Source: a virus | Taxonomy: Duplodnaviria; Heunggongvirae; Uroviricota; Caudoviricetes | Reading direction: 5' to 3' (one strand) | IMG/VR virus record: IMGVR_UViG_2939177367_000002 | DNA length: 37,633 nt | The notes under the pieces: model-generated | Database searches by the model: none | Told to the model about the DNA's origin: nothing | Seen by the model: the letters and a program-made list of their open reading frames with translations, nothing else | In this document: positions 1-35,013 of the stretch, in pieces | Numbering within the stretch: the first letter of the stretch is position 1 | How the letters are laid out: every line of letters starts with the position of its first letter | Program-made: the position numbers and the translations under genes

Positions 1-1053
1 TTATGGGGTAATGCCAACCGCTGCCGCCACTTTGTCGCCACTTGGCAGCGTTGCCAGAGGATTGAAACGGAGCGCCGTTTCTAGATGATCCGGTGCCAGA
101 TGTGCGTAACGCATAGTCATTTTTATATCGTGGTGTCCGAGAATTTTTTGTAAGGCCAGAATGTTTCCACCCGACATCATGAAGTGCGCCGCAAACGTAT
201 GGCGCAGAACGTGTGTGAGTTGACCGCGAGGGAGCACGATAGACGTTTTTTCCATCACGGATAAAAATTGAAAATAGCAGTCTGTGAAGAAATTGAACCC
301 ATCAAGCGCCATGATCTCTTCGTAAAGCTCTTTACTGATAGGGATGCTTCTGTTTTTCTTCCCCTTCGTTCTGACAAAGGTAATTCGGTATTTGGTCACC
401 TGTGAGCGGGTAAGATTTACGGCTTCACGCCAGCGTGCGCCTGTGCTTAAGCATATCTTAACTACCAGTGCCAGAATTGGGTCCTGACGTTTGCAATCAG
501 CCAGCAATTCAACAATCTGCTCATGGGTAAGCCATGCCATCTCTTTTTCTGCGATGGTGAATTTTCGCATGTTCTCCAGTGGGTTCGGATACGACCATTC
601 GCCCAGACGGGATAGTTCGCTAAAAACACTACTTAGATAGCTTTGCTCCAGGTTAATGGTGACCGGGCTTGCTCCTTTCTTCCATTTCTCGCTGAAGTAG
701 ATCTCGCCTGTCAGGCGTTTATCTCGATAGTGGGCAAACATTTTAGAGGTGAGATCGGTTGCAAGAGGATTGCCCAGAGCGTCAACCATCAACAGCAATT
801 TGTCATAGACATGCTGCCCAGCTGTCAGAGATTTACCATGTAGTTTGAACCATAGCTCAACCACGTCTTTCAGTGTTCGACGATCCACTGATTCACCCAG
901 CCAGGGCTTTGCTTCGGTTTCTTCCATCGTGTGGCGCTCAAAAGCCAGTGCTTCGCCTTTGGTAGCGAATTGTTTACGCACACGACGCCCACTTCGTCCG
1001 GCGGGGTAACATTCGCAAAGCCATTTCCCTGTGGTTAGTTTTCGTACTGCCAT
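1..1053 (-). CDS. int: Tyrosine integrase (P2/186-like), 350 aa; stop codon at window positions 1-3
   Basis: ATG at 1053 (reverse complement). C-terminal catalytic signature readable in translation: R in LSTGARWREA, H-x-x-R in HVLRHTFAAH, Tyr in MTMRYAHL. Sits at the prophage end next to the att repeat. Confidence 0.9.
   Translation of the reverse strand: MAVRKLTTGKWLCECYPAGRSGRRVRKQFATKGEALAFERHTMEETEAKPWLGESVDRRTLKDVVELWFKLHGKSLTAGQHVYDKLLLMVDALGNPLATDLTSKMFAHYRDKRLTGEIYFSEKWKKGASPVTINLEQSYLSSVFSELSRLGEWSYPNPLENMRKFTIAEKEMAWLTHEQIVELLADCKRQDPILALVVKICLSTGARWREAVNLTRSQVTKYRITFVRTKGKKNRSIPISKELYEEIMALDGFNFFTDCYFQFLSVMEKTSIVLPRGQLTHVLRHTFAAHFMMSGGNILALQKILGHHDIKMTMRYAHLAPDHLETALRFNPLATLPSGDKVAAAVGITP
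21..40. repeat. Putative attL core (CTGCCGCCACTTTGTCGCCA), left copy of a 20-bp direct repeat flanking the prophage
   Basis: 19/20 identity with 34781..34800 (CTGCCGCCAATTTGTCGCCA); the copies sit at the int and ogr ends. Lies inside the last codons of int. Confidence 0.6.
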
Positions 1054-1077
1054 AAAAAGCCCTCATATCAGAGGGCT
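1054..1077 (-). terminator. Hairpin (AGCCCTC-N7-GAGGGCT) followed by a T-run on the minus strand, immediately upstream of the int start codon
   Basis: Plus strand reads aaaagccctcatatcagagggct; on the minus strand the stem is followed by TTTTT and then the int ATG. The GAGGG of the 3' arm is also the only plausible int ribosome-binding site. Confidence 0.4.
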
Positions 1078-1085
1078 AAATTTAA

Positions 1086-1101
1086 CTGTATATGTAACCA
1101 G
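1086..1101. promoter_or_regulatory. LexA-box-like palindrome CTGTATATGTAACCAG (CTG-N10-CAG) inside a promoter-like spacer upstream of int
   Basis: Invariant CTG/CAG ends with an AT-rich centre. On the minus strand it lies between TTGATT and TTAAAT hexamers spaced 17 nt apart. Confidence 0.3.
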
Positions 1102-1135
1102 TAATCAATGTGTGATTACTATGAAAGATACATTG

Positions 1136-2812
1136 CTAAGCAACATGTAGTTCATCGTTGGCGGAAGTGGCTGCTTTGCGCTCCTGCTCAATAGCTAGAG
1201 ACTCTCTATATTCTTTCGCCTCTGCAAACATTGTCCAGTGGGCGTTGATGTTCATGTCTTCAATAACTGATTTGATTTCTTTTAAATTTACGTTAAAAAA
1301 CTCTTTTCGTGAGTTAATTTTATTGACCTGCTTTTCGTTGAAAACTTTATGCAGATGGTTTTCTAATGATGGTGCATCATCACTATAAATCATCGCATGA
1401 ACATCGAACGAAAAAGGAACACTAGCATCTCCGAGTTCACGAACACGATCAAGTGGTTCAAGGCGGCGTGTCATTCCAATTTTATATACATCTTCGCCAA
1501 ATGAACCAATATTACTAATGATATAGACGTGGCCTGATCTGGTTTGTTGAGCCATAGAAATAGCTCGTTGATTTTTAGCTTCAGCTTCTTCATATTTTAA
1601 CTGTAGTTCAGCTATTTTTTGCTCTAAAGCTAAGCGTTGTTCTTCATTTGCAAGCATAAGTTCTTTCGTTGCTTTATTTATAGCTTGCTGAATAGCTTTT
1701 TCTTCTTTTTCAGCTTCTTTTATCGCTTTTTCATATTCTCTACGAGCTCTTTCCTCTTCACGAAGCTGTTCTTTAATCCTTCTTTGCTCTTCTTTTTCTT
1801 CGAGCATAATTTCATTAACTGCTACACCCCATTTTAGCTCGTTGAGTCTTGCCTGAAGATAGATGTCACTTATTTTTGCGGACCTAAAGGCAGAGCCATT
1901 GTAATTTACTAGTTGAAATGCATCTTTTATTTCTTGGGAAAGTTTTCCAAAATTGTTGTGTTTGACTTTTGATAAAATACTGTCAACTCTTCCATTGAAG
2001 GCATCCAAAACAAAGTTTATGGCAGTATTACGCCTGTTTTGCTCAACATAATCACACGAAGCAGCTTTATTAGTTTTTATTAATGATTTGGTTAACTCTC
2101 TGGCTTTTTGTAATTCCTTGCCTGCATCTGTAAATTCATAATTTTCTGCCAGCTCATCAAGTACACTACGGTTAGGGATGATCCATTCATCACCATAACC
2201 TTCAATTTTATTTTTCATTGATTTTGCAACTGCTTCATATTTTTCTGCAAACTCTTTAGCTTCATATGCTGAACCAGCAATCTCCTTTGCTCTTTCTTCT
2301 GCATCAGAAATAATTTTTACTGCATTGTCATTAGCATTTGAGATTAGCTCATTTGCTTTATTATTAGCATTATCAAGACGTTCTTTGGCTTTCAGGCGTG
2401 CATCGCGAGCGTCTTTGGTGATTGCTATAGCTTCGCTATTAGCGTTGCTTATTGTCATCTGAGCTTGATAATTTGCTTCGTTTACTGTTTTAGCCGCCTT
2501 AATTTGGGCTTCATCTATTTTTTGCTTGGCTATTGAGTCCGCATTTTTTATCTTATTCTCTGCATCCATTACTGCGCTGTGCAATTCTTCGTATTGCCAC
2601 AATGGTGCTGCTCGCCCTTCAAGCTCTGATAATTCTCGTACGGTCTGTGCTAGTTTTTCTTGATTTTCAATCAGTTGGTTAGAAAGGGCTATGTTGTTAG
2701 CTGTCAGGTTATCTATAGCCGCTTTGTGTTTTTTACTTTGTTTAAATAATATTACAGCTAGAACAGGGGCGAGAAATGCTAATAAGAGTATAACGATGGC
2801 AAATGAATTCAT
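1136..2812 (-). CDS. Cargo protein, 558 aa: N-terminal transmembrane helix, long coiled coil, C-terminal T5orf172/GIY-YIG-like domain (DUF4041-like central region)
   Basis: ATG at 2812 with AAGGAT ribosome-binding site only 20 bp after the repressor stop. N-terminus MNSFAIVILLLAFLAPVLAVILF is hydrophobic. C-terminus contains GHVYIISN...YKIGMTRR...FDVHAMIYS resembling the T5orf172 fold. Region is visibly AT-rich compared with flanking phage genes. Confidence 0.75.
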   Translation of the reverse strand: MNSFAIVILLLAFLAPVLAVILFKQSKKHKAAIDNLTANNIALSNQLIENQEKLAQTVRELSELEGRAAPLWQYEELHSAVMDAENKIKNADSIAKQKIDEAQIKAAKTVNEANYQAQMTISNANSEAIAITKDARDARLKAKERLDNANNKANELISNANDNAVKIISDAEERAKEIAGSAYEAKEFAEKYEAVAKSMKNKIEGYGDEWIIPNRSVLDELAENYEFTDAGKELQKARELTKSLIKTNKAASCDYVEQNRRNTAINFVLDAFNGRVDSILSKVKHNNFGKLSQEIKDAFQLVNYNGSAFRSAKISDIYLQARLNELKWGVAVNEIMLEEKEEQRRIKEQLREEERARREYEKAIKEAEKEEKAIQQAINKATKELMLANEEQRLALEQKIAELQLKYEEAEAKNQRAISMAQQTRSGHVYIISNIGSFGEDVYKIGMTRRLEPLDRVRELGDASVPFSFDVHAMIYSDDAPSLENHLHKVFNEKQVNKINSRKEFFNVNLKEIKSVIEDMNINAHWTMFAEAKEYRESLAIEQERKAATSANDELHVA

Positions 2813-2832: not shown

Positions 2833-3429
2833 TTAATTCGAGACTATTGTACTTCTTATACAAGCAACCACTTCAATATCAGAAAATGCACATTCAAAGC
2901 TATTCTCTGCTGTTGTAATTTTAATCATTCCTTTAGGAAGCCTTGTGATTTTTCGAATGGAATAGGTTCCGTCGATATTGATTAACCAGTTTCCATCAAG
3001 TACTTCAGAAAATTTTTGATCACAAATGTATGTGACGAGTCCATCCTGAACAACAATTGGTGATGAAAGGTTTGCAGGAAGAAATGATGAATCGAAGACA
3101 TATGAACCGTCTTCAATCATTTTGCCTGCGGCAAGGCGAAACTTAACAAGCTCTTCTGTAGCTGCTGTCAGCGAGCTTTGCTTAAGGCCTTGTCCGGTAG
3201 TTAACCATTTGAGGGAGGTTCCTGTTTCAAGAGCACATTGGATTATCCAGTCAGCAGGAAATGTATCCCGCAAATACCTGTTCGCTAGTGTGCTTTTTGA
3301 TACTTCCAAGTGATCAGCTAAAGCCTGTCGTGTCGTAAAGCCATAGGCTTCGACTAATCGCTCAATCGCAGCCTTACCACCTTTATTGGGATTTATTTTG
3401 ATCTCACTTGGGTACTTTGATGTTGACAT
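2833..3429 (-). CDS. cI: CI-type immunity repressor (phage 186 CI-like), 198 aa
   Basis: ATG at 3429. N-terminal helix-turn-helix-like segment (TTRQALADHLEVSKSTLANRYL). Position between int and a divergent Apl/CII-like operon matches the 186 switch region. Confidence 0.75.
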   Translation of the reverse strand: MSTSKYPSEIKINPNKGGKAAIERLVEAYGFTTRQALADHLEVSKSTLANRYLRDTFPADWIIQCALETGTSLKWLTTGQGLKQSSLTAATEELVKFRLAAGKMIEDGSYVFDSSFLPANLSSPIVVQDGLVTYICDQKFSEVLDGNWLINIDGTYSIRKITRLPKGMIKITTAENSFECAFSDIEVVACIRSTIVSN

Positions 3430-5579: not shown

Positions 5580-6433
5580 GCACCATCCTGAAATGGGCAG
5601 GAAATAAAACCGCCATAATGTCCGAACTGAAAAAGCATCTTCCTGCTGGCCCGCGACTGGTTGAACCTTTCGCGGGTTCCTGTGCAGTGATGATGGAGAC
5701 GGATTACCCCAGCTATCTTGTTGCGGATATTAATCCTGATTTAATCAACCTCTATAAAAAGGTTGCTGCTGATTGTGAGGCGTTTATATCTCGTGCCAGA
5801 GCTTTATTTGAGGAAGCAAACAGGGAGGTGGCTTATTACAACATAAGGCAGGAGTTTAATTACTCCACTGAAATTACTGATTTCATGAAAGCGGTATATT
5901 TCCTGTATCTCAATCGTCACGGTTACCGTGGTTTATGTCGCTATAACAAGAGCGGGCATTTCAACATTCCCTACGGTAATTATAAAAATCCGTATTTCCC
6001 TGAAAAAGAAATTCGCGCATTTGCAGAGAAAGCCCAGCGGGCAACGTTTATCTGCGCCAGCTTTGATGAAACGCTGGCGATGTTGAAGGTGGGGGATGTG
6101 GTGTATTGCGATCCGCCTTATGACGGTACGTTTTCCGGCTATCACACTGATGGTTTCACTGAAGATGATCAGTATCACCTGGCATCCATTCTTGAACATC
6201 GGTCATCAGAAGGACATCCGGTCATTGTTTCTAACAGTGACACATCCCTGATCCGTTCGTTGTATCGCAATTTCACCCACCACTACATCAAAGCAAAACG
6301 CAGCATCGGTGTGGCAGCTGGCGAGGGTAAATCAGCAACAGAAATCATTGCTGTTTCCGGGCCGCGCTGCTGGGTGGGATTTGATTATTCGCGTGGCGTG
6401 GACAGTTCTGCCGTGTACGGAGTACGTGCATGA
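5576..6433 (+). CDS. DNA N6-adenine methyltransferase (Dam-like, D12 class), 285 aa
   Basis: ATG at 5576 with GGAGG ribosome-binding site. SAM-binding-like segment [11 protein letters not shown] and catalytic DPPY motif (VYCDPPYDG) visible in translation. No nuclease partner adjacent. Confidence 0.85.
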
Positions 6434-8844
6434 GTCATGCCGATATGAACAACTGCTGCGGCTTTAACGAGTCTGCCGCAGCATTCTCATGGAACAGCCC
6501 GAAAAAGGCCATTAACCCTTATCTGGACCCGGCGGAAGTTGCGCCGGTTTCTGCGCTTTCAAACCTGATCACTCTGTACGCTGCCGATAACGAGCAGGAA
6601 CAACTGCGCCGCGAGGCACTGAGTGATCAGGTCTGGGAGCGTTATTTCTTTAATGAATCCCGTGATCCTGTCCAGCGCGAAATGGAGCAGGATAAGCTAA
6701 TTAGCCGGGCAAAGCTGGCGCATGAGCAGCAGCGTTTTAATCCGGACATGGTCATTCTGGCGGATGTCAACGCCCAGCCTTCCCATATCAGCAAGCCGCT
6801 GATGCAACGTATTGAATACTTCAGCAGCCTGGGCAGGCCAAAGGCTTATTCCCGCTATTTACGTGAGACGATTAAGCCATGTCTGGAACGACTGGAGCAT
6901 GTACGCGACAGTCAGCTATCTGCATCTTTTCGCTTTATGGCAAGCCATGAAGGGCTGGACGGCCTGCTGATCTTGCCTGAAATGAGTCAGGATCAGGTGA
7001 AACGCCTGTCCACCCTGGTAGCTGCGCATATGAGTATGTGCCTTGATGCAGCTTGTGGTGATTTGTATGCCACCGATGACGTTAAGCCAGAAGAAATCCG
7101 CAAGACATGGGAAAGGGTGGCAGCAGAAACCCTGCGACTGGATGTCATCCCACCTGCGTTTGAGCAACTCCGCCGGAAAAGAAACCGCCGTAAACCCGTG
7201 CCCTATGAACTCATTCCGGGTTCGCTGGCGCGTATGTTGTGCGCCGACTGGTGGTATCGGAAATTATGGAAGATGCGTTGCGAATGGCGGGAAGAGCAGT
7301 TGCGCGCTGTCTGCCTGGTCAGCAAAAAAGCATCTCCCTATGTCAGCTATGAAGCTGTGATGCATAAACGTGAGCAGCGCCGTAAGTCGCTGGAGTTTTT
7401 TCGTTCTCATGAACTGGTGAACGAAGATGGCGACACGCTGGATATGGAAGACGTGGTAAACGCCAGCAGCAGCAACCCTGCGCATCGCCGCAATGAGATG
7501 ATGGCCTGTGTTAAAGGTCTGGAGCTTATCGCGGAAATGCGCGGTGACTGCGCCGTTTTCTACACCATCACCTGTCCGTCACGTTTCCATTCCACGCTAA
7601 ATAACGGCAGGCCCAACCCGACTTGGACAAATGCGACGGTAAGACAAAGCAGTGATTATCTGGTCGGCATGTTTGCTGCATTTCGTAAGGCGATGTACAA
7701 AGCCGGATTGCGCTGGTATGGCGTGCGGGTGGCTGAGCCGCATCATGACGGTACAGTTCACTGGCACCTGTTGTGTTTTATGCGCAAAAAAGATCGCCGC
7801 GCCATTACTGCTTTGTTGCGTAAGTTTGCCATTCGTGAAGACCGTGAGGAGCTGGGTAATAACACAGGACCACGCTTTAAGTCTGAGCTGATAAACCCGC
7901 GCAAAGGTACGCCAACAAGCTACATCGCGAAATACATCAGTAAGAACATTGACGGGCGTGGTCTGGCTGGCGAGATCAGCAAGGAAACGGGTAAATCCCT
8001 GCGTGATAACGCTGAATACGTTAATGCCTGGGCGTCTCTTCATCGTGTTCAGCAATTCCGCTTCTTTGGCATTCCGGGGCGTCAGGCTTACCGTGAACTG
8101 CGATTGCTGGCTGGTCAGGCGGCAAGGCAACAGGGGGACAAAAAAGCAGGTGCGGCGGTACTGGATAACCCACGCCTTGATGCCATCCTGGCTGCTGCTG
8201 ATGCTGGTTGTTTTGCCACCTACATCATGAAGCAGGGCGGCGTGCTGGTTCCCCGTAAATATCACCTCATCAGAACCGCTTATGAAATCAACGAAGAGCC
8301 GACCGCCTATGGCGATCACGGCATTCGTATTTATGGCATCTGGTCACCCATTGCAGAGGGCAAGATCTGCACTCATGCAGTGAAGTGGAAAATGGTTCGT
8401 AAAGCCGTTGACGTTCAGGAGGCGGCAGCCGACCAGGGCGCTTGCGCCCCTTGGACTCGTGGCAATAACTGTCCCCTTGCTGAAAATTTGTACCAACAAG
8501 GGAAAGACAAATCAGCTGATGGGGATACCAGAACGGATATTACCCGCATGGATGACAAGGAGTTGCACGATTACCTGCACAGTATGAACAAAAAAGAGCG
8601 CCGGGAACTGGCTGCAAGGTTACGCCTGGTGAAACCGAAACGGCGTAAAGACTACAAACAGCGAATTACAGACCATCAGCGACAGCAGCTCGTCTATGAA
8701 CTGAAGTCCAGAGGATTTGATGGCAGCGAGAAAGAGGTCGATTTACTCCTTCGCGGCGGCAGTATTCCGTCAGGAGCAGGCCTGCGTATCTTCTATCGGA
8801 ACCAGCGTTTGCAGGAAGATGATAAGTGGCGAAACCTGTATTAA
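6430..8844 (+). CDS. A: Rolling-circle replication initiator endonuclease (P2 gpA-like), 804 aa
   Basis: ATG at 6430 overlapping the upstream stop. Size, position and a paired-tyrosine segment ([11 protein letters not shown]) match the P2 A family. Confidence 0.9.
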
Positions 8845-8936
8845 TTACGCGGGTTAACAATTCGTGCTCTTAATAATACCAGGCATATCAGGCTGATGAA
8901 CGTAAAAAAACGTTTTACATCAGTAAGATTATTATA

Positions 8937-8956
8937 TACTGTAAATATAAACAGTG
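8937..8956. promoter_or_regulatory. LexA (SOS) box TACTGTAAATATAAACAGTG
   Basis: CTG-N10-CAG with AT-rich centre, close to the E. coli consensus TACTGTATATATATACAGTA; about 40 bp upstream of the 8997 start codon. Confidence 0.6.
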
Positions 8957-8996
8957 GTTATATTTACAGTATTGCTTTGGTGTCATAGGAGGAAAG

Positions 8997-9185
8997 ATGC
9001 AGGACTATTTTTTGGAGTCTTTGAAGCTCCAGCGCATTGATTTTTTTCTTAAGCTTGTAGCGGCTAGTGAGTGTAGTGATGAAGAGAAGGGGCTGGCTTT
9101 GCAGTGGGTTTCTGAACTAACAGATGAACTCATGGCAAAAATCAGAACCCACGAATACAACCGCTCAATGGATGTCATCAGTTGA
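8997..9185 (+). CDS. Small SOS-controlled protein, 62 aa; possibly the N-terminal module of a Tum-like antirepressor
   Basis: ATG at 8997 with AGGAGG ribosome-binding site directly downstream of the LexA box; followed 11 nt later by the DinI-like gene. Confidence 0.5.
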   Translation: MQDYFLESLKLQRIDFFLKLVAASECSDEEKGLALQWVSELTDELMAKIRTHEYNRSMDVIS

Positions 9186-9196
9186 GGTGACTTTTT

Positions 9197-9430
9197 ATGC
9201 GCATTGAAATAATGATCGATAAAGAGCAGAAGATTAGCCAGTCTACCCTGGACGCCCTTGAATCCGAGCTTTACCGCAATCTGCGTCCTCTGTATCCCAA
9301 AATGGTAATTCGTATCCGCAAAGGTAGCTCTAACGGTGTGGAACTGACCGGATTGCAACTGGACGAAGAAAGAAAACAAGTGATGAAAATTATGCAGAAG
9401 GTGTGGGAAGACGACAGCTGGCTGCATTAA
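9197..9430 (+). CDS. DinI-like protein, 77 aa
   Basis: ATG at 9197 with GAGGTGA ribosome-binding site. Translation MRIEIMIDK...IRIRKGSSNGVELTGL...VWEDDSWLH resembles the DinI family as I recall it. Confidence 0.7.
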   Translation: MRIEIMIDKEQKISQSTLDALESELYRNLRPLYPKMVIRIRKGSSNGVELTGLQLDEERKQVMKIMQKVWEDDSWLH

Positions 9431-9700
9431 GAAACGTTGCTGGCGTCTGAACTTGCTTCTGGCGTCAGCAAGGTTGAACAACGAGCTATGCGAGGCGTTA
9501 GTGTCAATTTGTTACCTTAACCACTATATATGCCAGGAAATTAACAGTTCTTAAGAAACAGCTTGCATGATCGAGCGCATTGAACTTAAGTTTAAGTAAC
9601 GCAATCAACAGATGATATTGTTGTCTAAATTTTAAAGATAATCTGTTGAGGTTGTAGGCGTCGGAGTGTAGACTTCCGCGCCATGTGAAAAGGGGGAGTT

Positions 9701-9916
9701 ATGTCAAGCATCGCCGCATTTAGCCTGGGTAACCCAGTTGAACGTCTGGCAAGGGTTCTTAAAGAGAACCAGGACAAACTCAATCTTAGTAAAGATGGTT
9801 TTGTGTCCGTAGACTTGTCTAACAAAAGAGCAATGGATGCCATCAAGGCACAGATGGATAAGCTTGAAGGCATCAAAACGAGCACTGTAAAAGAGAAAAC
9901 TAATAGAACCAGATAA
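9701..9916 (+). CDS. Hypothetical small soluble protein, 71 aa; first gene of a two-gene cargo operon
   Basis: ATG at 9701 with GGGGGAG upstream; its stop TAA overlaps the next ATG (TAATG at 9914..9918), implying translational coupling. Confidence 0.5.
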   Translation: MSSIAAFSLGNPVERLARVLKENQDKLNLSKDGFVSVDLSNKRAMDAIKAQMDKLEGIKTSTVKEKTNRTR

Positions 9917-10758
9917 TGGCAACATTACTTTTAGCAGTGATTTTGGTTAGTGGTTTTATTTATGTAAACCTATCACTTTCAACAAGATACCGATATAAGC
10001 GTTCCAACGGCTGGGACGCTTATTTTTTTGTGGCTGCCTGGGGTATCGTTTTTTTTCTCCTTGGCGGTTTTTTCACCTTTATTTTGAACGTCAGCGGAGG
10101 GTTTCGTTGGCTGGCTAATGCCTTGAATCTAACACCTGACAGTTTTAATGGCATGTTGTCTTCATCGAAAGACAAACTTCAAAGAATAAATGAAATCAAA
10201 CAGATAGCATGGGTTATGATTTCAATTGTCCTCGCTGCGATTTCAGGTTTTGGAAATAAGTTACGCACATCACGTGGAGATCGTCGCTGGGATGCCTTAG
10301 CTAAAGCTGTGGGTAATAACGCTTTCGAATCATTACTCATGGAAGCGTCCGCAAGACAGTTTCCGATCATAGCAACTCTGTCGTCTCGCAAAATCTATGT
10401 TGGTCTTGTTACTTGTCCGGCGTTAGAAAACGGGCTTTCAGAGCACCTTGAACTTCTCCCGATGTTAAGCGGATATCGGGATAAAGATGATCTAACGATT
10501 AGTATCACGACTAACTATCACCAACATTATCTTGATAGTGGTGTGATAAGTGGAATGTCTCGGCTTAATATCGAAGATTTCCGTGTGCTCATACCAAAAG
10601 ATGAGGTTGAAACAATTTCGTTTTTTGATACTGAGACATATAACAAATTTAAAGAAAATGAAGCCAGGGATAGAAAGAACTGTCGAAAGATTGATAGTAA
10701 AAGTGCATCTTCGCGCAGCAAGCGTGCAGCAGATGCTGAGTCAAATGATCGTGCATGA
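9916..10758 (+). CDS. Hypothetical membrane protein, 280 aa, three predicted transmembrane helices plus a ~170-aa charged C-terminal domain
   Basis: Hydrophobic segments LLLAVILVSGFIYVNL, YFFVAAWGIVFFLLGGFFTFIL and IAWVMISIVLAAISGFG; no family recognised. Confidence 0.6.
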   Translation: MATLLLAVILVSGFIYVNLSLSTRYRYKRSNGWDAYFFVAAWGIVFFLLGGFFTFILNVSGGFRWLANALNLTPDSFNGMLSSSKDKLQRINEIKQIAWVMISIVLAAISGFGNKLRTSRGDRRWDALAKAVGNNAFESLLMEASARQFPIIATLSSRKIYVGLVTCPALENGLSEHLELLPMLSGYRDKDDLTISITTNYHQHYLDSGVISGMSRLNIEDFRVLIPKDEVETISFFDTETYNKFKENEARDRKNCRKIDSKSASSRSKRAADAESNDRA

Positions 10759-10805
10759 CTATGCTGCATGAGATCGCATGATCGTTTGAGGATCGTTTTT
10801 GCTAG

Positions 10806-10830
10806 GGCCCGCCAGAACTGGCGGGCTTTC
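10806..10830 (+). terminator. Weak hairpin GGCCCGCC-AGAACT-GGCGGGC followed by TTTC
   Basis: Read directly; lies after the 280-aa gene and before the AT-rich promoter region of the 557-aa gene. Confidence 0.3.
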
Positions 10831-10995
10831 GCGTAGATCATGCACCTGCATGAAAACTACTACATAAAGCGGGCAGGCGTGGCGGGGATACGAGCGCGCG
10901 CAACAGTGTAACAATCTGGATCTAATGTGATATAGTTACTGTAAATATTATTAACTATTCTTATATGCATTATTAAATATTTTAATGGAGCGTTT

Positions 10996-12669
10996 ATGGA
11001 AAAATATCAAGATGAGGAATATGTAGATGATTTAACTGAGCGTGTTTTTCTCATTAAGCAACAACTGGAAGCGGGAAAACTAAAAATAGCTCATCATCTT
11101 GTAGAAGGTTTTATTGAAAGTTTTAAAAGAATAAGGCTGCGACAGGATGGTAAAGTTGACCCTTCTACTGTTGATGGCAGAATAAGGGCTATGGGAGCAG
11201 CGGTTAATCACTTTTTAGAAAGAGAAGATATAAAAAACAAATACTCTATTCAGGACTTGCAAAGTTCTTACTTTAATATTCTTTTTAGTAATTTTGGCGA
11301 GTTGTTTTATCTGATGAAAAAAACTAATGCAACGCCACATAAAGCATCAAGTTTTTTTTCTCAACAAGAAGAATATGTTAAGCAAATAGAAGATATTTTT
11401 CCTGAGTTATATAATCAGGTAATAGAGTTTTGGCAGGTAACATCCGATATTGGTGTAATACATTTGCAGGATGGTTCTCAGTTTAAAGCTAATTTTTCTG
11501 GTGACTTATTTCCTGCATTTGATGAGAATGCTGTCTCTATTGCAGGGTTGTATGTTGATACTATTTCACTTCCATGTCCTATATTAAGAGTCGGTCGTCT
11601 CTATGAAAAGTCAGATAAGGCTGAGTTTACAAGGATACTTCTGAAGCATGTCCTAACATGTATGACATATAAAGAAGTAGCGCTTGAAGATATAGAGCCA
11701 GCAATAGTATTAATTTTGCCGGATAGAAGAGATTTTGAAACTGAGAGCAAAAAAAATTTGATGAGTTTTTGTGAGCCTTATGCTCTGACTCATGCGCAAT
11801 ATCTCTATGATCGACGGTTCGAAAGCTACGATGAATTTCGAGATTTTAGTTATTCGATGAATGATATTGATGCTGTTCTTAAAAATATTAAGAGAGCAGA
11901 TAGACTTATTTTTGATACAGCATGGGGGCTAAATCCAAAAACTCAATTAGAAAAACTACTATCTGATAAAAAAAGAATATCACGTAATGTTGTTGGTGAT
12001 CATGCTGGAATGGAGGTTTTCCTTTCCTGCATTGGAAGAATGCCGCAAGCCTATTCAGCAAAATGTAATGCACAAGAACTTGGTAGTACTCCATATATAA
12101 ATGCAGACACATCTTGGCTCTATTATACTTGGCTTATTGAGTACGAATCTCTTAATTTTGATGTCAATGATATTGAACTAAAAAATTTGCATATGGTTCA
12201 TGCGTTATCTGCTGGTATGCAAGATGGTTTTTCATGGTTAGGAAATGTACCGGTCAATAAAATAATTGAGTTGAGACGTAACAAATTGATGGAGGATGTA
12301 AGATCCATCTTATCAAATGGTGTTGACTCTTTAATCAATTCTTCGGCAGAGAGCTTTTCGAGGACAACGCAAAAAGTAATTGATAATGTAGACCGGGCTT
12401 TTATTGAACATCAAAGGATTCTTGCAAAAGCCCAAAAAGAGAAATTGAGAATTTACGGACTAGATGTCCTACCATGTATCGCAAATGGTGCTATAGCAAT
12501 TGCTGGAGCGCTGACTGGCAATACTACTTTAACGGCGTTAAGTGCAGGCCTTGGAGTAATAGGTATTCCGAGTATTAGTGATATCAAATCTAAATTTAAG
12601 CAGAGGCAAGAGAAGCTTGATGCCTATCAACGTTCTGTTACAGGTATACTCTTTAGCCATAAATCTTAA
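10996..12669 (+). CDS. Hypothetical protein, 557 aa, very AT-rich, with a Gly/Ala-rich hydrophobic segment near the C-terminus; no recognisable family
   Basis: ATG at 10996 with GGAG upstream and an AT-rich promoter-like leader. Long uninterrupted frame with protein-like composition; C-terminal GAIAIAGALTG...ALSAGLGVIGIP; terminator hairpin downstream. Confidence 0.7.
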   Translation: MEKYQDEEYVDDLTERVFLIKQQLEAGKLKIAHHLVEGFIESFKRIRLRQDGKVDPSTVDGRIRAMGAAVNHFLEREDIKNKYSIQDLQSSYFNILFSNFGELFYLMKKTNATPHKASSFFSQQEEYVKQIEDIFPELYNQVIEFWQVTSDIGVIHLQDGSQFKANFSGDLFPAFDENAVSIAGLYVDTISLPCPILRVGRLYEKSDKAEFTRILLKHVLTCMTYKEVALEDIEPAIVLILPDRRDFETESKKNLMSFCEPYALTHAQYLYDRRFESYDEFRDFSYSMNDIDAVLKNIKRADRLIFDTAWGLNPKTQLEKLLSDKKRISRNVVGDHAGMEVFLSCIGRMPQAYSAKCNAQELGSTPYINADTSWLYYTWLIEYESLNFDVNDIELKNLHMVHALSAGMQDGFSWLGNVPVNKIIELRRNKLMEDVRSILSNGVDSLINSSAESFSRTTQKVIDNVDRAFIEHQRILAKAQKEKLRIYGLDVLPCIANGAIAIAGALTGNTTLTALSAGLGVIGIPSISDIKSKFKQRQEKLDAYQRSVTGILFSHKS

Positions 12670-32890: not shown

Positions 32891-33372
32891 TGATGGTGCT
32901 GGGATTGTACGTGTTTATGCTGCGCACCGTGCCGTATCAGGAGCTGCAGTATCAACGCAGCTGGCGACATGCGGCAAACAGCCGGGTAAACCGACGTCCG
33001 TCCACGCAGTTTCTGGGACCGGACAACGACATGCTGACGCTTTCCGGTGTTCTTATGCCGGAGATAACAGGTGGCAGGCTGTCGTTGCTGGCACTGGAGC
33101 AGATGGCAGAACAGGGGAAAGCATGGCCCCTGATTGAAGGCAGCGGCACGATTTATGGCATGTATGTGATTGAGGGACTGAATCAGACTAAAACGGAGTT
33201 TTTCCGCGACGGTATGCCGCGCCGGATTGAGTTCACCCTGTCGCTCAAAAGGGTGGATGAATCATTGTCCGATATGTTCGGTGATCTCAGTGCGCAACTG
33301 AATAATCTGCAGGACACGGCAACGTCTGCCTTAAGCGATATCAGTAAAACGGTGGGAGGGCTGCTGTCGTGA
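32887..33372 (+). CDS. U: Tail protein (P2 gpU-like), 161 aa
   Basis: Start overlaps the T stop; size matches P2 U. Confidence 0.85.
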   Translation: MMMVLGLYVFMLRTVPYQELQYQRSWRHAANSRVNRRPSTQFLGPDNDMLTLSGVLMPEITGGRLSLLALEQMAEQGKAWPLIEGSGTIYGMYVIEGLNQTKTEFFRDGMPRRIEFTLSLKRVDESLSDMFGDLSAQLNNLQDTATSALSDISKTVGGLLS

Positions 33373-34469
33373 ATTTCAGCTCTGAACTGCTTAACAAAGG
33401 CAACAAAACTCCCGCATTCAGCATCAGTATTGAGGGCAGGGATATCACCACTGTGCTGGATAACCGCCTGATGAGTCTGACGCTGACGGATAACCGGGGC
33501 TTTGAAGCGGACCAGCTTGATCTGGAGCTGGACGACGCCGATGGAAAAATAGCGCTGCCGCGCCGTGGTGCGGTCATTACGCTGGCGCTGGGCTGGAAGG
33601 GGCAGCCGCTTTTCCCGAAAGGGGCATTCACGGTGGACGAGATTGAACACACTGGCGCACCGGACCGCCTGACTATCCGGGCGCGAAGTGCTGATTTTCG
33701 GGAAACGCTGAATACCCGCCGTGAAAAGTCGTGGCACAAGACCACTGTCGGGGAAGTGGTGAAGGAAATAGCTGTGCGGCACAAACTGAAGATGGCACTG
33801 GGTAAAGACCTGTCAGATAAACCCGTGGAACATATAGACCAGACTAATGAGAGTGACGGCAGTTTTCTGATGCGGCTGGCGCGCCAGTACGGTGCTATTG
33901 CGTCGGTGAAAAATGGCAATCTGTTATTCATCCGGCAGGGACAGGGTAAAAGCGCCAGCGGTAAACCACTACCGGTTATCACTATCACACGTAAGGACGG
34001 CGACAGTCACCGCTTTACCCTGGCAGATCGCGGAGCCTACACGGGCGTAATTGCCAGCTGGTTGCATACCCGCGAACCCGCGAAGAAAGAAAGCACCACG
34101 GTGAAGCGTAAGCGCAGGACTAAGAAGCAGAAGAAAGAGCCGGAAGCGAAGCAGGGCGATTACCTGGTGGGTTCAGATGAAAACGTGCTGGTACTTAATC
34201 GCACTTATGCCAACCGGAGCAACGCTGAACGGGCTGCGAAAATGCAGTGGGAACGCCTGCAACGCGGCGTTGCGTCATTCTCGCTACAACTGGCGGAAGG
34301 GCGGGCAGAACTCTATACGGAAATGCCAGTGAAAGTCAGTGGCTTTAAACAGCCGATAGATGATGCGGAATGGACCATTACGACTCTGACACATACCGTC
34401 AGCCCGGATAATGGTTTTACGACCAGTCTGGAGCTTGAAGTGAGGATTGATGATTTCAAAATGGAATGA
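33369..34469 (+). CDS. D: Late-control/tail protein (P2 gpD-like), 366 aa
   Basis: Start overlaps the U stop; size and position. Confidence 0.85.
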   Translation: MNFSSELLNKGNKTPAFSISIEGRDITTVLDNRLMSLTLTDNRGFEADQLDLELDDADGKIALPRRGAVITLALGWKGQPLFPKGAFTVDEIEHTGAPDRLTIRARSADFRETLNTRREKSWHKTTVGEVVKEIAVRHKLKMALGKDLSDKPVEHIDQTNESDGSFLMRLARQYGAIASVKNGNLLFIRQGQGKSASGKPLPVITITRKDGDSHRFTLADRGAYTGVIASWLHTREPAKKESTTVKRKRRTKKQKKEPEAKQGDYLVGSDENVLVLNRTYANRSNAERAAKMQWERLQRGVASFSLQLAEGRAELYTEMPVKVSGFKQPIDDAEWTITTLTHTVSPDNGFTTSLELEVRIDDFKME

Positions 34470-34800: not shown

Positions 34801-34858
34801 TCGTTAAAAAACACTGCTTCTAACATCATGATTTTAAAAGGCATAAATTTTAGGCAAC

Positions 34859-34901
34859 AAAAAACCCATCAACCTTGAACCGAAATGGCGGGGTTGATGG
34901 G
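34859..34901 (-). terminator. Rho-independent terminator of ybjL (10-bp stem CCCATCAACC/GGTTGATGGG followed by a T-run on the minus strand)
   Basis: Read directly; a perfect 10-bp stem, with AAAAAA on the plus strand at 34859..34864 giving UUUUUU on the minus-strand transcript. Confidence 0.55.
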
Positions 34902-35013
34902 CTCCACAAAATGGGGACATCAAAGAAAAGCAGTGGCACTAATTAAGACTGATGCCCTGCGGAAAAGTTCTGCGGTTGTGCAAAAAAATTTCATTTTCAG
35001 GGCAACTTCAGTT

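What the first reader, a model, noticed from the sequence alone, without database searches (positions are those of the whole stretch)
8937..9430. SOS-controlled module: LexA box, 62-aa ORF and DinI-like gene downstream of replication gene A
A near-consensus LexA box (TACTGTAAATATAAACAGTG) overlaps the promoter of a two-gene unit. In phage 186, SOS induction works through the LexA-repressed antirepressor Tum, whose C-terminus is DinI-like; here the equivalent appears as two separate ORFs with their own ribosome-binding sites. This suggests the prophage is UV/SOS-inducible by a 186-type mechanism and that the split arrangement is a variant of Tum.
Basis: partly seen in the sequence, partly recalled or inferred. 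Interest (0 to 1): 0.55.

Follow-up and report, generated by a model that had tools for sequence, protein, structure and literature searches.

The report
Known split Tum SOS induction module
This is the already described two-gene form (tumA plus tumB) of the phage 186 Tum antirepressor, kept off by LexA in a 186/Fels-2-like prophage; it is ordinary, being found in about a fifth of complete E. coli genomes.

Summary
A LexA box lies at 8937-8956, a 62-aa gene at 8997-9185 and a 77-aa DinI-family gene at 9197-9430, all just downstream of replication gene A (6430-8844). Pairwise BLASTP finds nothing between the 62-aa protein and 186 Tum. A profile of the 62-aa family, however, aligns residues 3-44 with Tum residues 3-44 (hhalign 94.7%, E 6e-8), and both proteins hit the same PHROG families.

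The arrangement is not new. Phage PSP3 is annotated with tumA/tumB. Lemire et al. 2011 (citing Bunny et al. 2002) state that Fels-2 and PSP3 carry tum split by a stop codon, with the upstream gene as the antirepressor. The window's protein is 98.4% identical to Fels-2 STM2728, and box 1 of the operator is identical.

Two details go beyond the finding:
- The operator is double. A second, weaker box at 8952-8971 overlaps the first by 5 bp, as in the colicin E1 promoter (32/38 identical).
- The same TumA occurs with seven divergent CI repressors that share mainly their N-terminal DNA-binding domain.

Verdict: already known, low interest.

The parts
8914..8919 (+). Putative -35 hexamer TTTACA of the SOS promoter (counterpart of 186 p95)
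   Evidence: It lies 17 bp upstream of TACTGT. The GTTTTACAT block is conserved across the Fels-2-type phages. 186 p95 is annotated as TTCACA-18 bp-TACTGT. The simple sigma-70 scan reported no site at its threshold, so the assignment rests on homology and is inferred.
8937..8942 (+). Putative -10 hexamer TACTGT, inside LexA box 1
   Evidence: It has the same hexamer and the same relation to the LexA box as the annotated -10 of 186 p95. Inferred.
8937..8956 (.). LexA box 1, TACTGTAAATATAAACAGTG (strong)
   Evidence: It is the only match within 3 mismatches of the consensus in the window, with 0 in 100 shuffles. It is the top weight-matrix score in the window. It is identical in Fels-2, 4LV2017, Cartapus, ST340phi10.2 and Kp4846-2.
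8952..8971 (.). LexA box 2, CAGTGGTTATATTTACAGTA (weak), overlapping box 1 by 5 bp with a 15-bp offset
   Evidence: It scores 15.6 bits, above the weakest training site, and no such site appeared in 40 Markov simulations. A second box at the same offset scores at least 12.5 bits in 10 of the 11 Fels-2-type phages scanned; Kp4846-2 falls below that threshold but still matches the spacing pattern. The ColE1 cea promoter has the same layout, and its box 2 is identical to that of Fels-2.
8987..8992 (+). Shine-Dalgarno AGGAGG for tumA
   Evidence: It lies 4 nt before the ATG at 8997 and is conserved in relatives.
8997..9185 (+). tumA-like gene, 62 aa: presumed CI antirepressor
   Evidence: Matches phrog_698 at 3.6e-38. 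hhalign to 186 Tum residues 3-44 gives 94.7%, E 6.3e-8. It is 98.4% identical to Fels-2 STM2728. Substitutions are biased to third codon positions. AlphaFold predicts a helical hairpin (H2-22, H28-61, pLDDT 89).
9174..9191 (+). Small stem-loop covering the tumA stop codon and the tumB Shine-Dalgarno (GAGGTGA, 9184-9190)
   Evidence: The terminator-like scan picked it up. As RNA its folding energy does not differ from shuffles (z -0.27). A role in translational coupling or attenuation is only a possibility.
9197..9430 (+). tumB-like gene, 77 aa, DinI family
   Evidence: Pfam DinI at 5.4e-23. It is 77% identical to PSP3 TumB and 40% identical to 186 Tum residues 71-145. 186 Tum residues 72-142 match the solved DinI structure 1ghh.
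9433..9475 (+). Stable hairpin after tumB, at the position of 186 t95a, without a U tract
   Evidence: RNA fold -25.8 kcal/mol, z -2.24. Similarity to most relatives ends at about 9428 or about 9501, so variable cargo begins beyond this point.
2833..3429 (-). 186-type CI immunity repressor, the presumed target of TumA
   Evidence: Pfam Phage_CI_repr at 8e-32 and Phage_CI_C at 3.5e-27, with no peptidase domain. It matches the 186 CI structure 2fjr at 6.7e-27.

Best explanation
This is the SOS operon of a 186/Fels-2-like (P2-family) prophage, in the two-gene tumA-tumB form.

Proposed mechanism, step by step:
1. In the lysogen, LexA occupies two overlapping SOS boxes (8937-8956 and 8952-8971). 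These cover the -10 element and the likely start site of a promoter just downstream of gene A.
2. DNA damage activates RecA. LexA cleaves itself and the operon is transcribed.
3. TumA is a 62-aa helical hairpin homologous to the N-terminal part of 186 Tum. It binds the non-cleavable 186-type CI repressor and stops it binding its operators. The lytic promoter is then derepressed and the prophage is induced.
4. TumB, a DinI-family protein equivalent to the C-terminal part of Tum, is made from the same transcript. It most likely modulates RecA filaments, and so the SOS signal, rather than acting on CI.

Shown here: the sequence features, the homologies, the genomic context and the conservation. 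Inferred: LexA binding, antirepressor activity and inducibility. These are taken from 186, PSP3 and the near-identical Fels-2 module.
For: - LexA box 1 is unique in the window and absent from shuffles. Boxes 1 and 2 rank first and third of all 20-mers.
- The double-box layout is conserved across Fels-2-type phages.
- The promoter geometry matches the annotated, LexA-controlled 186 p95.
- ORF62 is homologous to the Tum N-terminus.
- TumB is a DinI-family protein.
- CI is of the 186 type, with no S24 peptidase hit.
- PSP3 is annotated with tumA ('similar to 5' end 186 tum; UV induction of prophage') and tumB.
- Lemire et al. [quoted passage not shown]
- The window's tumA is 98.4% identical to Fels-2 STM2728, and box 1 is identical.
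- The Fels-2 operon STM2726-2728 was reported as differentially expressed after treatment with the mutagen MX, and STM2727 rose 5.5- to 14.8-fold among LexA-regulon genes (PMC2225428).
- The 186 mechanism, in which Tum sequesters CI after LexA derepression of p95, is restated in PMC7708051.
Against: - Nothing was tested experimentally for this prophage.
- Pairwise BLASTP finds no similarity between ORF62 and either 186 Tum or PSP3 TumA. The homology rests on profiles and covers about 42 residues.
- The simple sigma-70 scan finds no promoter at its threshold.
- The same TumA (98-100% identical) sits beside CI proteins that are only 60-85% identical in the N-terminal domain and 21-58% in the C-terminal domain. 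It is therefore not proven that TumA matches this particular CI.
- From my own recollection of Bunny et al. 2002, Fels-2 is only weakly UV-inducible.
- The LexA weight matrix was built from about 25 E. coli sites recalled from memory.
Confidence: 0.82

Rival explanations
1. The module is LexA-controlled but is uncoupled from the resident repressor. After an immunity-region swap, TumA no longer fits this CI. The operon would then act only in trans on other co-resident prophages, or only through DinI-like modulation of RecA, and this prophage would not be SOS-inducible.
For: Seven CI types, 60-85% identical in the N-terminal domain and 21-58% in the C-terminal domain, accompany a TumA that is 98-100% identical. 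The window's CI is only about 41% identical overall to Fels-2 CI. Trans-acting antirepressor crosstalk is documented for Gifsy and Fels-1 (PMC3121763).
Against: Within the Fels-2-type TumA group the CI N-terminal HTH domain keeps a shared block (SKST[ML]A.R..RD.FPA[DE]W[IV]I.C). Residues such as T47, A49, W61 and I63 are invariant in that group and differ in 186, PSP3 and the ESSI phages. TumA identity correlates with N-terminal-domain identity (Spearman 0.76) much better than with C-terminal-domain identity (0.30), although the pairs are not phylogenetically independent. tumA is under purifying selection and the module is kept in 1,082 of 5,426 E. coli genomes.
Confidence: 0.12
2. ORF62 is not an antirepressor. 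The locus is simply an SOS-induced DinI 'moron' with a small leader ORF of unrelated or no function.
For: ORF62 has no Pfam family. BLASTP finds no match to Tum or TumA. RefSeq annotates it as 'hypothetical protein'. There is no solved structure, and the fold search gives only generic helical hairpins.
Against: Profile-profile homology to the Tum N-terminus. Reciprocal PHROG hits. Purifying selection. Several phages (ESSI2_ev015, ESSI-2, ENT90, YenM_324, YenM_201.16) keep a TumA-like gene behind a LexA box with no DinI gene, which shows that TumA is the conserved core. PSP3 tumA is annotated as needed for UV induction.
Confidence: 0.04
3. Induction works in the lambda manner, by RecA-stimulated self-cleavage of CI, and the LexA-controlled module is accessory.
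For: None specific. This is the default model for SOS-inducible prophages.
Against: CI matches only Phage_CI_repr and Phage_CI_C and gives no Peptidase_S24 hit. It is homologous to 186 CI (2fjr). 186 is induced through the antirepressor Tum, which inhibits CI (PMC7708051); that its CI is not cleaved is from my own knowledge of Shearwin et al. 1998.
Confidence: 0.02

Closest known systems
Fels-2 STM2728 / STM2727 (STM2726.1) SOS operon of Salmonella Typhimurium LT2
   Same: Essentially the same module. TumA is 98.4% and TumB 98.7% identical. LexA box 1 is identical and box 2 differs by one base. The position after gene A is the same.
   Different: The CI repressor is only about 41% identical overall (N-terminal domain 72%, C-terminal domain 26%). 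Fels-2 carries an orf97-like gene after tumB, whereas this window carries other cargo.
PSP3 tumA / tumB
   Same: Two separate genes after gene A, behind a LexA box. tumA is annotated as the part needed for UV induction and tumB as DinI-like. TumB is 77% identical.
   Different: TumA is very divergent (about 14% identity in the family alignment, no BLASTP hit). PSP3 has a single LexA box. PSP3 CI has a duplicated N-terminal domain.
Coliphage 186 Tum (p95 SOS operon)
   Same: Same position and the same promoter and LexA-box geometry. The N-terminal region is homologous to ORF62, the C-terminal DinI-like region to the 77-aa protein, and the CI target is of the same type.
   Different: In 186 the two parts are fused into one 146-aa protein with internal starts. 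186 has a single LexA box. It carries orf97 downstream.
Colicin E1 (cea) double SOS operator
   Same: Two overlapping LexA boxes at a 15-bp offset, 32/38 bases identical to 8937-8974. ColE1 box 2 is identical to Fels-2 box 2. Colicin operators bind two LexA dimers and show no detectable basal expression (PMC2994835).
   Different: It sits on a plasmid and controls a toxin gene. There is no relation between the coding sequences. The resemblance may be convergence on a tight operator or shared descent of a short DNA element.
Gifsy dinI-gfoA/gftA operons
   Same: A LexA-repressed prophage operon that combines a DinI homologue with a small antirepressor acting on a non-cleavable repressor (PMC3121763).
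   Different: The gene order is reversed (dinI first). No similarity between the Gifsy antirepressors and TumA was tested here. The phages are lambdoid.

Membership tests
186-type Tum / TumA-TumB SOS antirepressor module | Located immediately downstream of replication gene A in a P2/186-family prophage | tested here: met
   Gene A is at 6430-8844 (Phage_GPA 7.8e-127) and the module at 8914-9430.
186-type Tum / TumA-TumB SOS antirepressor module | LexA box overlapping the promoter | tested here: met
   Box 1 at 8937-8956 is unique in the window, with 0 in 100 shuffles. It contains the -10 homologue of 186 p95. Binding itself was not tested.
186-type Tum / TumA-TumB SOS antirepressor module | Protein homologous to the Tum N-terminal (antirepressor) region | tested here: met
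   hhalign 94.7%, E 6.3e-8, residues 3-44 aligned with 3-44. Reciprocal PHROG hits. BLASTP alone was negative.
186-type Tum / TumA-TumB SOS antirepressor module | DinI-like moiety, fused or as a downstream gene | tested here: met
   Pfam DinI at 5.4e-23. The protein is 40% identical to Tum residues 71-145 and 77% identical to PSP3 TumB.
186-type Tum / TumA-TumB SOS antirepressor module | Cognate 186-type CI repressor that lacks a self-cleavage domain | tested here: met
   Phage_CI_repr plus Phage_CI_C only. Matches the 186 CI structure 2fjr at 6.7e-27.
186-type Tum / TumA-TumB SOS antirepressor module | Binds CI and blocks operator binding; needed for SOS induction | not testable with these tools
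   Known for 186 Tum (PMC7708051), reported for PSP3 TumA and implied for Fels-2 (PMC3121763).
DinI family (Pfam PF06183) | Score above the Pfam gathering threshold over the full domain | tested here: met
   81.5 bits against a cut-off of 24.2; residues 14-76 cover profile positions 1-63 of 63.
Colicin-type double overlapping SOS operator | Two LexA boxes overlapping by a few bp, the second with a degenerate left half | tested here: met
   Boxes at 8937-8956 and 8952-8971. ColE1 has the same 15-bp offset, and 32/38 bases are identical.
Colicin-type double overlapping SOS operator | Occupied by two LexA dimers, giving very tight repression | not testable with these tools
   Established for colicin operators (PMC2994835). 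It needs a footprint on this DNA.
Lambda-type RecA-cleavable repressor system | Repressor with a C-terminal S24 peptidase (LexA-like) domain | tested here: not met
   CI gave no Peptidase_S24 hit. Its C-terminal domain is Phage_CI_C.

The most novel reading that the evidence does not exclude
One essentially invariant TumA may neutralise many divergent CI immunity types by recognising the conserved N-terminal HTH domain. P2-family prophages of different immunity in the same cell would then be co-induced. The colicin-like double LexA operator of the Fels-2-type clade would set a higher SOS threshold, with little or no basal leak, than the single-box operators of 186 and PSP3. Neither point was found stated in the papers that could be read here.
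Probability: 0.35. Interest if true: 0.4.

Novelty: already known. Interest (0 to 1): 0.15.

Why it matters
It predicts that this prophage, and the roughly 20% of complete E. coli genomes that carry the same module, are induced by DNA damage through an antirepressor rather than by repressor cleavage. That bears on prophage induction by antibiotics that trigger the SOS response.

There is one practical point. RefSeq and most phage records still call TumA a 'hypothetical protein', and some call it a 'levan regulatory protein', although the literature identifies it. Annotation could be corrected.

The double LexA operator and the pairing of one TumA with many CI types are small, testable additions. 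They are not a new kind of system.

Tried and rejected
- Pairwise BLASTP of ORF62 against 186 Tum and PSP3 TumA, and of PSP3 TumA against Tum, found nothing. Taken alone this would have wrongly refuted the idea; profiles were needed.
- Pfam has no family for ORF62. PADLOC found nothing for either protein.
- The consensus promoter scan found no sigma-70 site. The promoter is assigned by analogy with 186 p95.
- The stem-loop at 9174-9191 does not fold better than shuffles, so I make no claim for it.
- A sequence search of the PDB with the TumA profile found nothing. The Foldseek search of the AlphaFold model gave only generic helical hairpins, none at E <= 0.001.
- The search for homologous proteins listed only relatives of at least 81% identity. 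The exhaustive representative search supplied the diversity for the profile. It returned mostly small proteins and no full-length fused Tum of about 146 aa at E <= 0.001.
- Bunny et al. 2002 (PMC151935) is not held, so its content is cited only through Lemire et al. 2011 and my recollection.
- The paper search for 'TumA/TumB' returned only irrelevant hits.
- The 158-aa antisense ORF (9005-9481) and the 30-aa ORF across the promoter (8896-8988) were considered. The antisense ORF is broken in all 9 relatives, so I reject it as a shadow ORF. I assume the 30-aa ORF is also spurious because it lies over the promoter; no test was run.
- My first indexing of box 2 was off by one and gave a meaningless score. 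This is corrected to 8952-8971 (top list).

Full report
**What is in the sequence**

The window is a 186/Fels-2-like member of the P2 family, integrated next to host DNA (RybB sRNA at 34856-34934). From the left it carries:
- int (1-1053, minus strand);
- a cargo gene (1136-2812, minus strand);
- a 186-type cI (2833-3429, minus strand; Pfam Phage_CI_repr plus Phage_CI_C, and a match to the 186 CI structure 2fjr at 6.7e-27);
- an Apl-like ORF (by eye; not scanned), CII (Pfam Phage_CP76) and a Dam-methylase-like ORF (by its counterparts in related phages);
- replication gene A (6430-8844; Phage_GPA 7.8e-127).

The finding lies in the 152-bp gap after gene A and the two small genes that follow.

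**Check of the observation**

TACTGTAAATATAAACAGTG is at 8937-8956. It is the only site in 37.6 kb within three mismatches of the LexA consensus, and no shuffle produced one. With a weight matrix built from about 25 E. coli LexA sites, which I recalled from the literature and which are therefore approximate, it is the best 20-mer in the window. It scores above 21 of the 25 training sites.

The 62-aa ORF (8997-9185) has a strong Shine-Dalgarno sequence. The 77-aa ORF (9197-9430) matches Pfam DinI at 5.4e-23.

ORF62 is a real gene. Compared with relatives at 84-89% protein identity, two thirds of the nucleotide changes fall on third codon positions. The long antisense ORF is broken in every relative.

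**Is ORF62 related to Tum?**

BLASTP says no, and it also fails between PSP3 TumA and 186 Tum. The family therefore evolves too fast for pairwise comparison. Profiles give a clear answer:
- ORF62 belongs to phrog_698 (3.6e-38) and also hits phrog_8554 and phrog_1993.
- The first 70 residues of 186 Tum hit phrog_1993 (1.5e-23), phrog_8554 (3.4e-12) and phrog_698 (5.9e-6), in register.
- I collected diverse relatives with an exhaustive HMMER search (66 proteins, mostly small, the majority 44-104 aa) and aligned 29 of them.
- That profile aligns with 186 Tum at hhalign probability 94.7%, E 6.3e-8, ORF62 residues 3-44 against Tum residues 3-44.

The shared core is a hydrophobic helix, a conserved Cys, an acidic turn and the motif [LI]A[LI].[WL][IV][SA]E[LI]. 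AlphaFold predicts a two-helix hairpin (pLDDT 89). It has no informative structural neighbour, and no solved relative exists.

The 77-aa protein is 40% identical to Tum residues 71-145 and 77% identical to PSP3 TumB.

**Already known**

The PSP3 record annotates tumA ('similar to 5' end 186 tum; UV induction of prophage') and tumB ('similar to dinI and 3' end of 186 tum') in exactly this position.

[quoted passage not shown] 2002 and a personal communication from G. E. Christie (PMC3121763).

The window's TumA is 98.4% and its TumB 98.7% identical to the Fels-2 proteins. The upstream region is nearly base-for-base the same, and LexA box 1 is identical.

In Salmonella TA100, the Fels-2 operon STM2726-2727-2728 was reported as differentially expressed after treatment with the DNA-damaging mutagen MX. 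STM2727 rose 5.5- to 14.8-fold and was listed with the LexA regulon (PMC2225428). From my own recollection of the Bunny et al. abstract, the Fels-2 tum homologue is what makes lexA null mutations lethal in LT2. That paper is not held here.

The module is also common. It is found at 80% coverage or more in 1,082 of 5,426 complete E. coli genomes, mostly at 95-99% identity, and RefSeq labels TumA 'hypothetical protein'.

**Mechanism**

By homology with 186 (annotated p95, LexA site and tum; mechanism restated in PMC7708051), the steps are as follows.
1. LexA represses a promoter whose -35 is TTTACA (8914-8919) and whose -10 is TACTGT (8937-8942), inside box 1.
2. SOS induction removes LexA.
3. 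TumA sequesters CI and derepresses the lytic promoter.
4. TumB, as a DinI-family protein, probably tunes RecA filaments.

CI has no S24 peptidase hit, so lambda-type self-cleavage is unlikely. The steps from LexA binding onwards are inferred for this prophage.

First, the operator is double. A second box, CAGTGGTTATATTTACAGTA (8952-8971), overlaps box 1 by 5 bp.
- It scores 15.6 bits, above the weakest genuine site in my matrix, and ranks third in the window. No site that good appeared in 40 Markov simulations.
- A second box at the same offset scores at least 12.5 bits in 10 of the 11 Fels-2-type phages scanned. In Kp4846-2 it falls below that threshold, though the spacing pattern is still matched. 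186, PSP3, ESSI-2, ESSI2_ev015, ENT90 and the Yersinia phages have a single box.
- The 35-bp element is 32/38 identical to the colicin E1 operator (TGCTGTATATAAAACCAGTGGTTATATGTACAGTA in ColE1), and ColE1 box 2 is identical to Fels-2 box 2.

A tight operator makes sense for a gene whose expression kills the lysogen. It may also relate to the weak UV inducibility I recall being reported for Fels-2.

Second, TumA is far more conserved than its presumed target.
- Phages with a TumA 98-100% identical to the window's carry seven different CI proteins. These are 60-85% identical in the N-terminal HTH domain and only 21-58% in the C-terminal domain, although CII and gpA are 82-99% identical to the window's (94-99% for the five phages with 100% identical TumA).
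- Across 16 phages, TumA identity tracks the CI N-terminal domain (Spearman 0.76) much better than the C-terminal domain (0.30).
- A few N-terminal-domain residues (G18, I22, T47, A49, W61, I63) are invariant in the Fels-2-type group and differ in 186, PSP3 and the ESSI phages.
- This suggests, but does not show, that TumA recognises the DNA-binding domain. The pairs are not independent, and N-terminal domains are generally the more conserved part.

The same data also allow the rival reading that TumA no longer fits some resident repressors.

**Direction of evolution**

In five of the fetched phages (ESSI2_ev015, ESSI-2, ENT90, YenM_324, YenM_201.16) a TumA-like gene sits behind a LexA box with no DinI gene annotated next to it. 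In the phage collection the window's TumA matched 76 records and the fused 186 Tum N-terminus matched 38. 186 Tum therefore looks like a fusion of two independent modules, not the ancestor of a split.

**Verdict**

The arrangement is already documented, near-identical to Fels-2, and very common. Interest is low. The double operator and the pairing of one TumA with many CI types are modest, testable additions.

Noticed in passing
window 1084-1103 (context 1053-1140, minus strand): A second strong LexA-box-like site, AACTGTATATGTAACCAGTA (23 bits, second best in the window). It lies between the stop of the cargo gene at 1136 and the int start codon at 1053. On the minus strand it sits between TTGATT and TTAAAT (17-bp spacing) and is followed by a terminator-like hairpin (1077-1058) whose T-run ends in the int ATG. 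This may be an SOS-controlled int promoter that replaces read-through from cI. None of the related phage loci without this cargo has a LexA site near int. The junction occurs in 163 of 5,426 E. coli genomes.
   Followed up: partly
window 1136-2812 (minus strand): A 558-aa cargo gene inserted between cI and int. It matches the PADLOC PD-Lambda-1 defence protein (2.4e-120) and carries Pfam DUF4041 plus T5orf172/MUG113 domains. RefSeq calls it 'DUF4041' or 'SNIPE associated domain-containing protein'.
   Followed up: partly
window 9701-12669: Variable cargo after tumB, at the position of 186 orf97 and P2 tin/old. It consists of a 71-aa ORF (phrog_9843), a 280-aa ORF whose N-terminal half looks hydrophobic by eye (phrog_3630) and a 557-aa ORF with only a weak PADLOC DitB hit (7.3e-10). 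None has a Pfam family. They could be a defence or exclusion system, possibly co-transcribed with the SOS operon.
   Followed up: partly
L005 404-1345, L008 1-936, L017 419-1279 (CI genes of 4LV2017, ST340-VIM1phi10.2, PSP3): Some 186-type CI repressors are about 290-313 aa long and carry two tandem N-terminal HTH domains in front of one C-terminal domain.
   Followed up: no
window 34856-34934 (minus strand): The host sRNA gene RybB (Rfam, 105 bits) lies just beyond the last long phage ORF in the listing (33369-34469). The right end of the window is therefore chromosomal, and the prophage is integrated next to rybB.
   Followed up: no
window 7850-7869: A weak LexA-like 20-mer, AGCTGGGTAATAACACAGGA (15 bits), inside gene A. 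It is probably a chance match.
   Followed up: no
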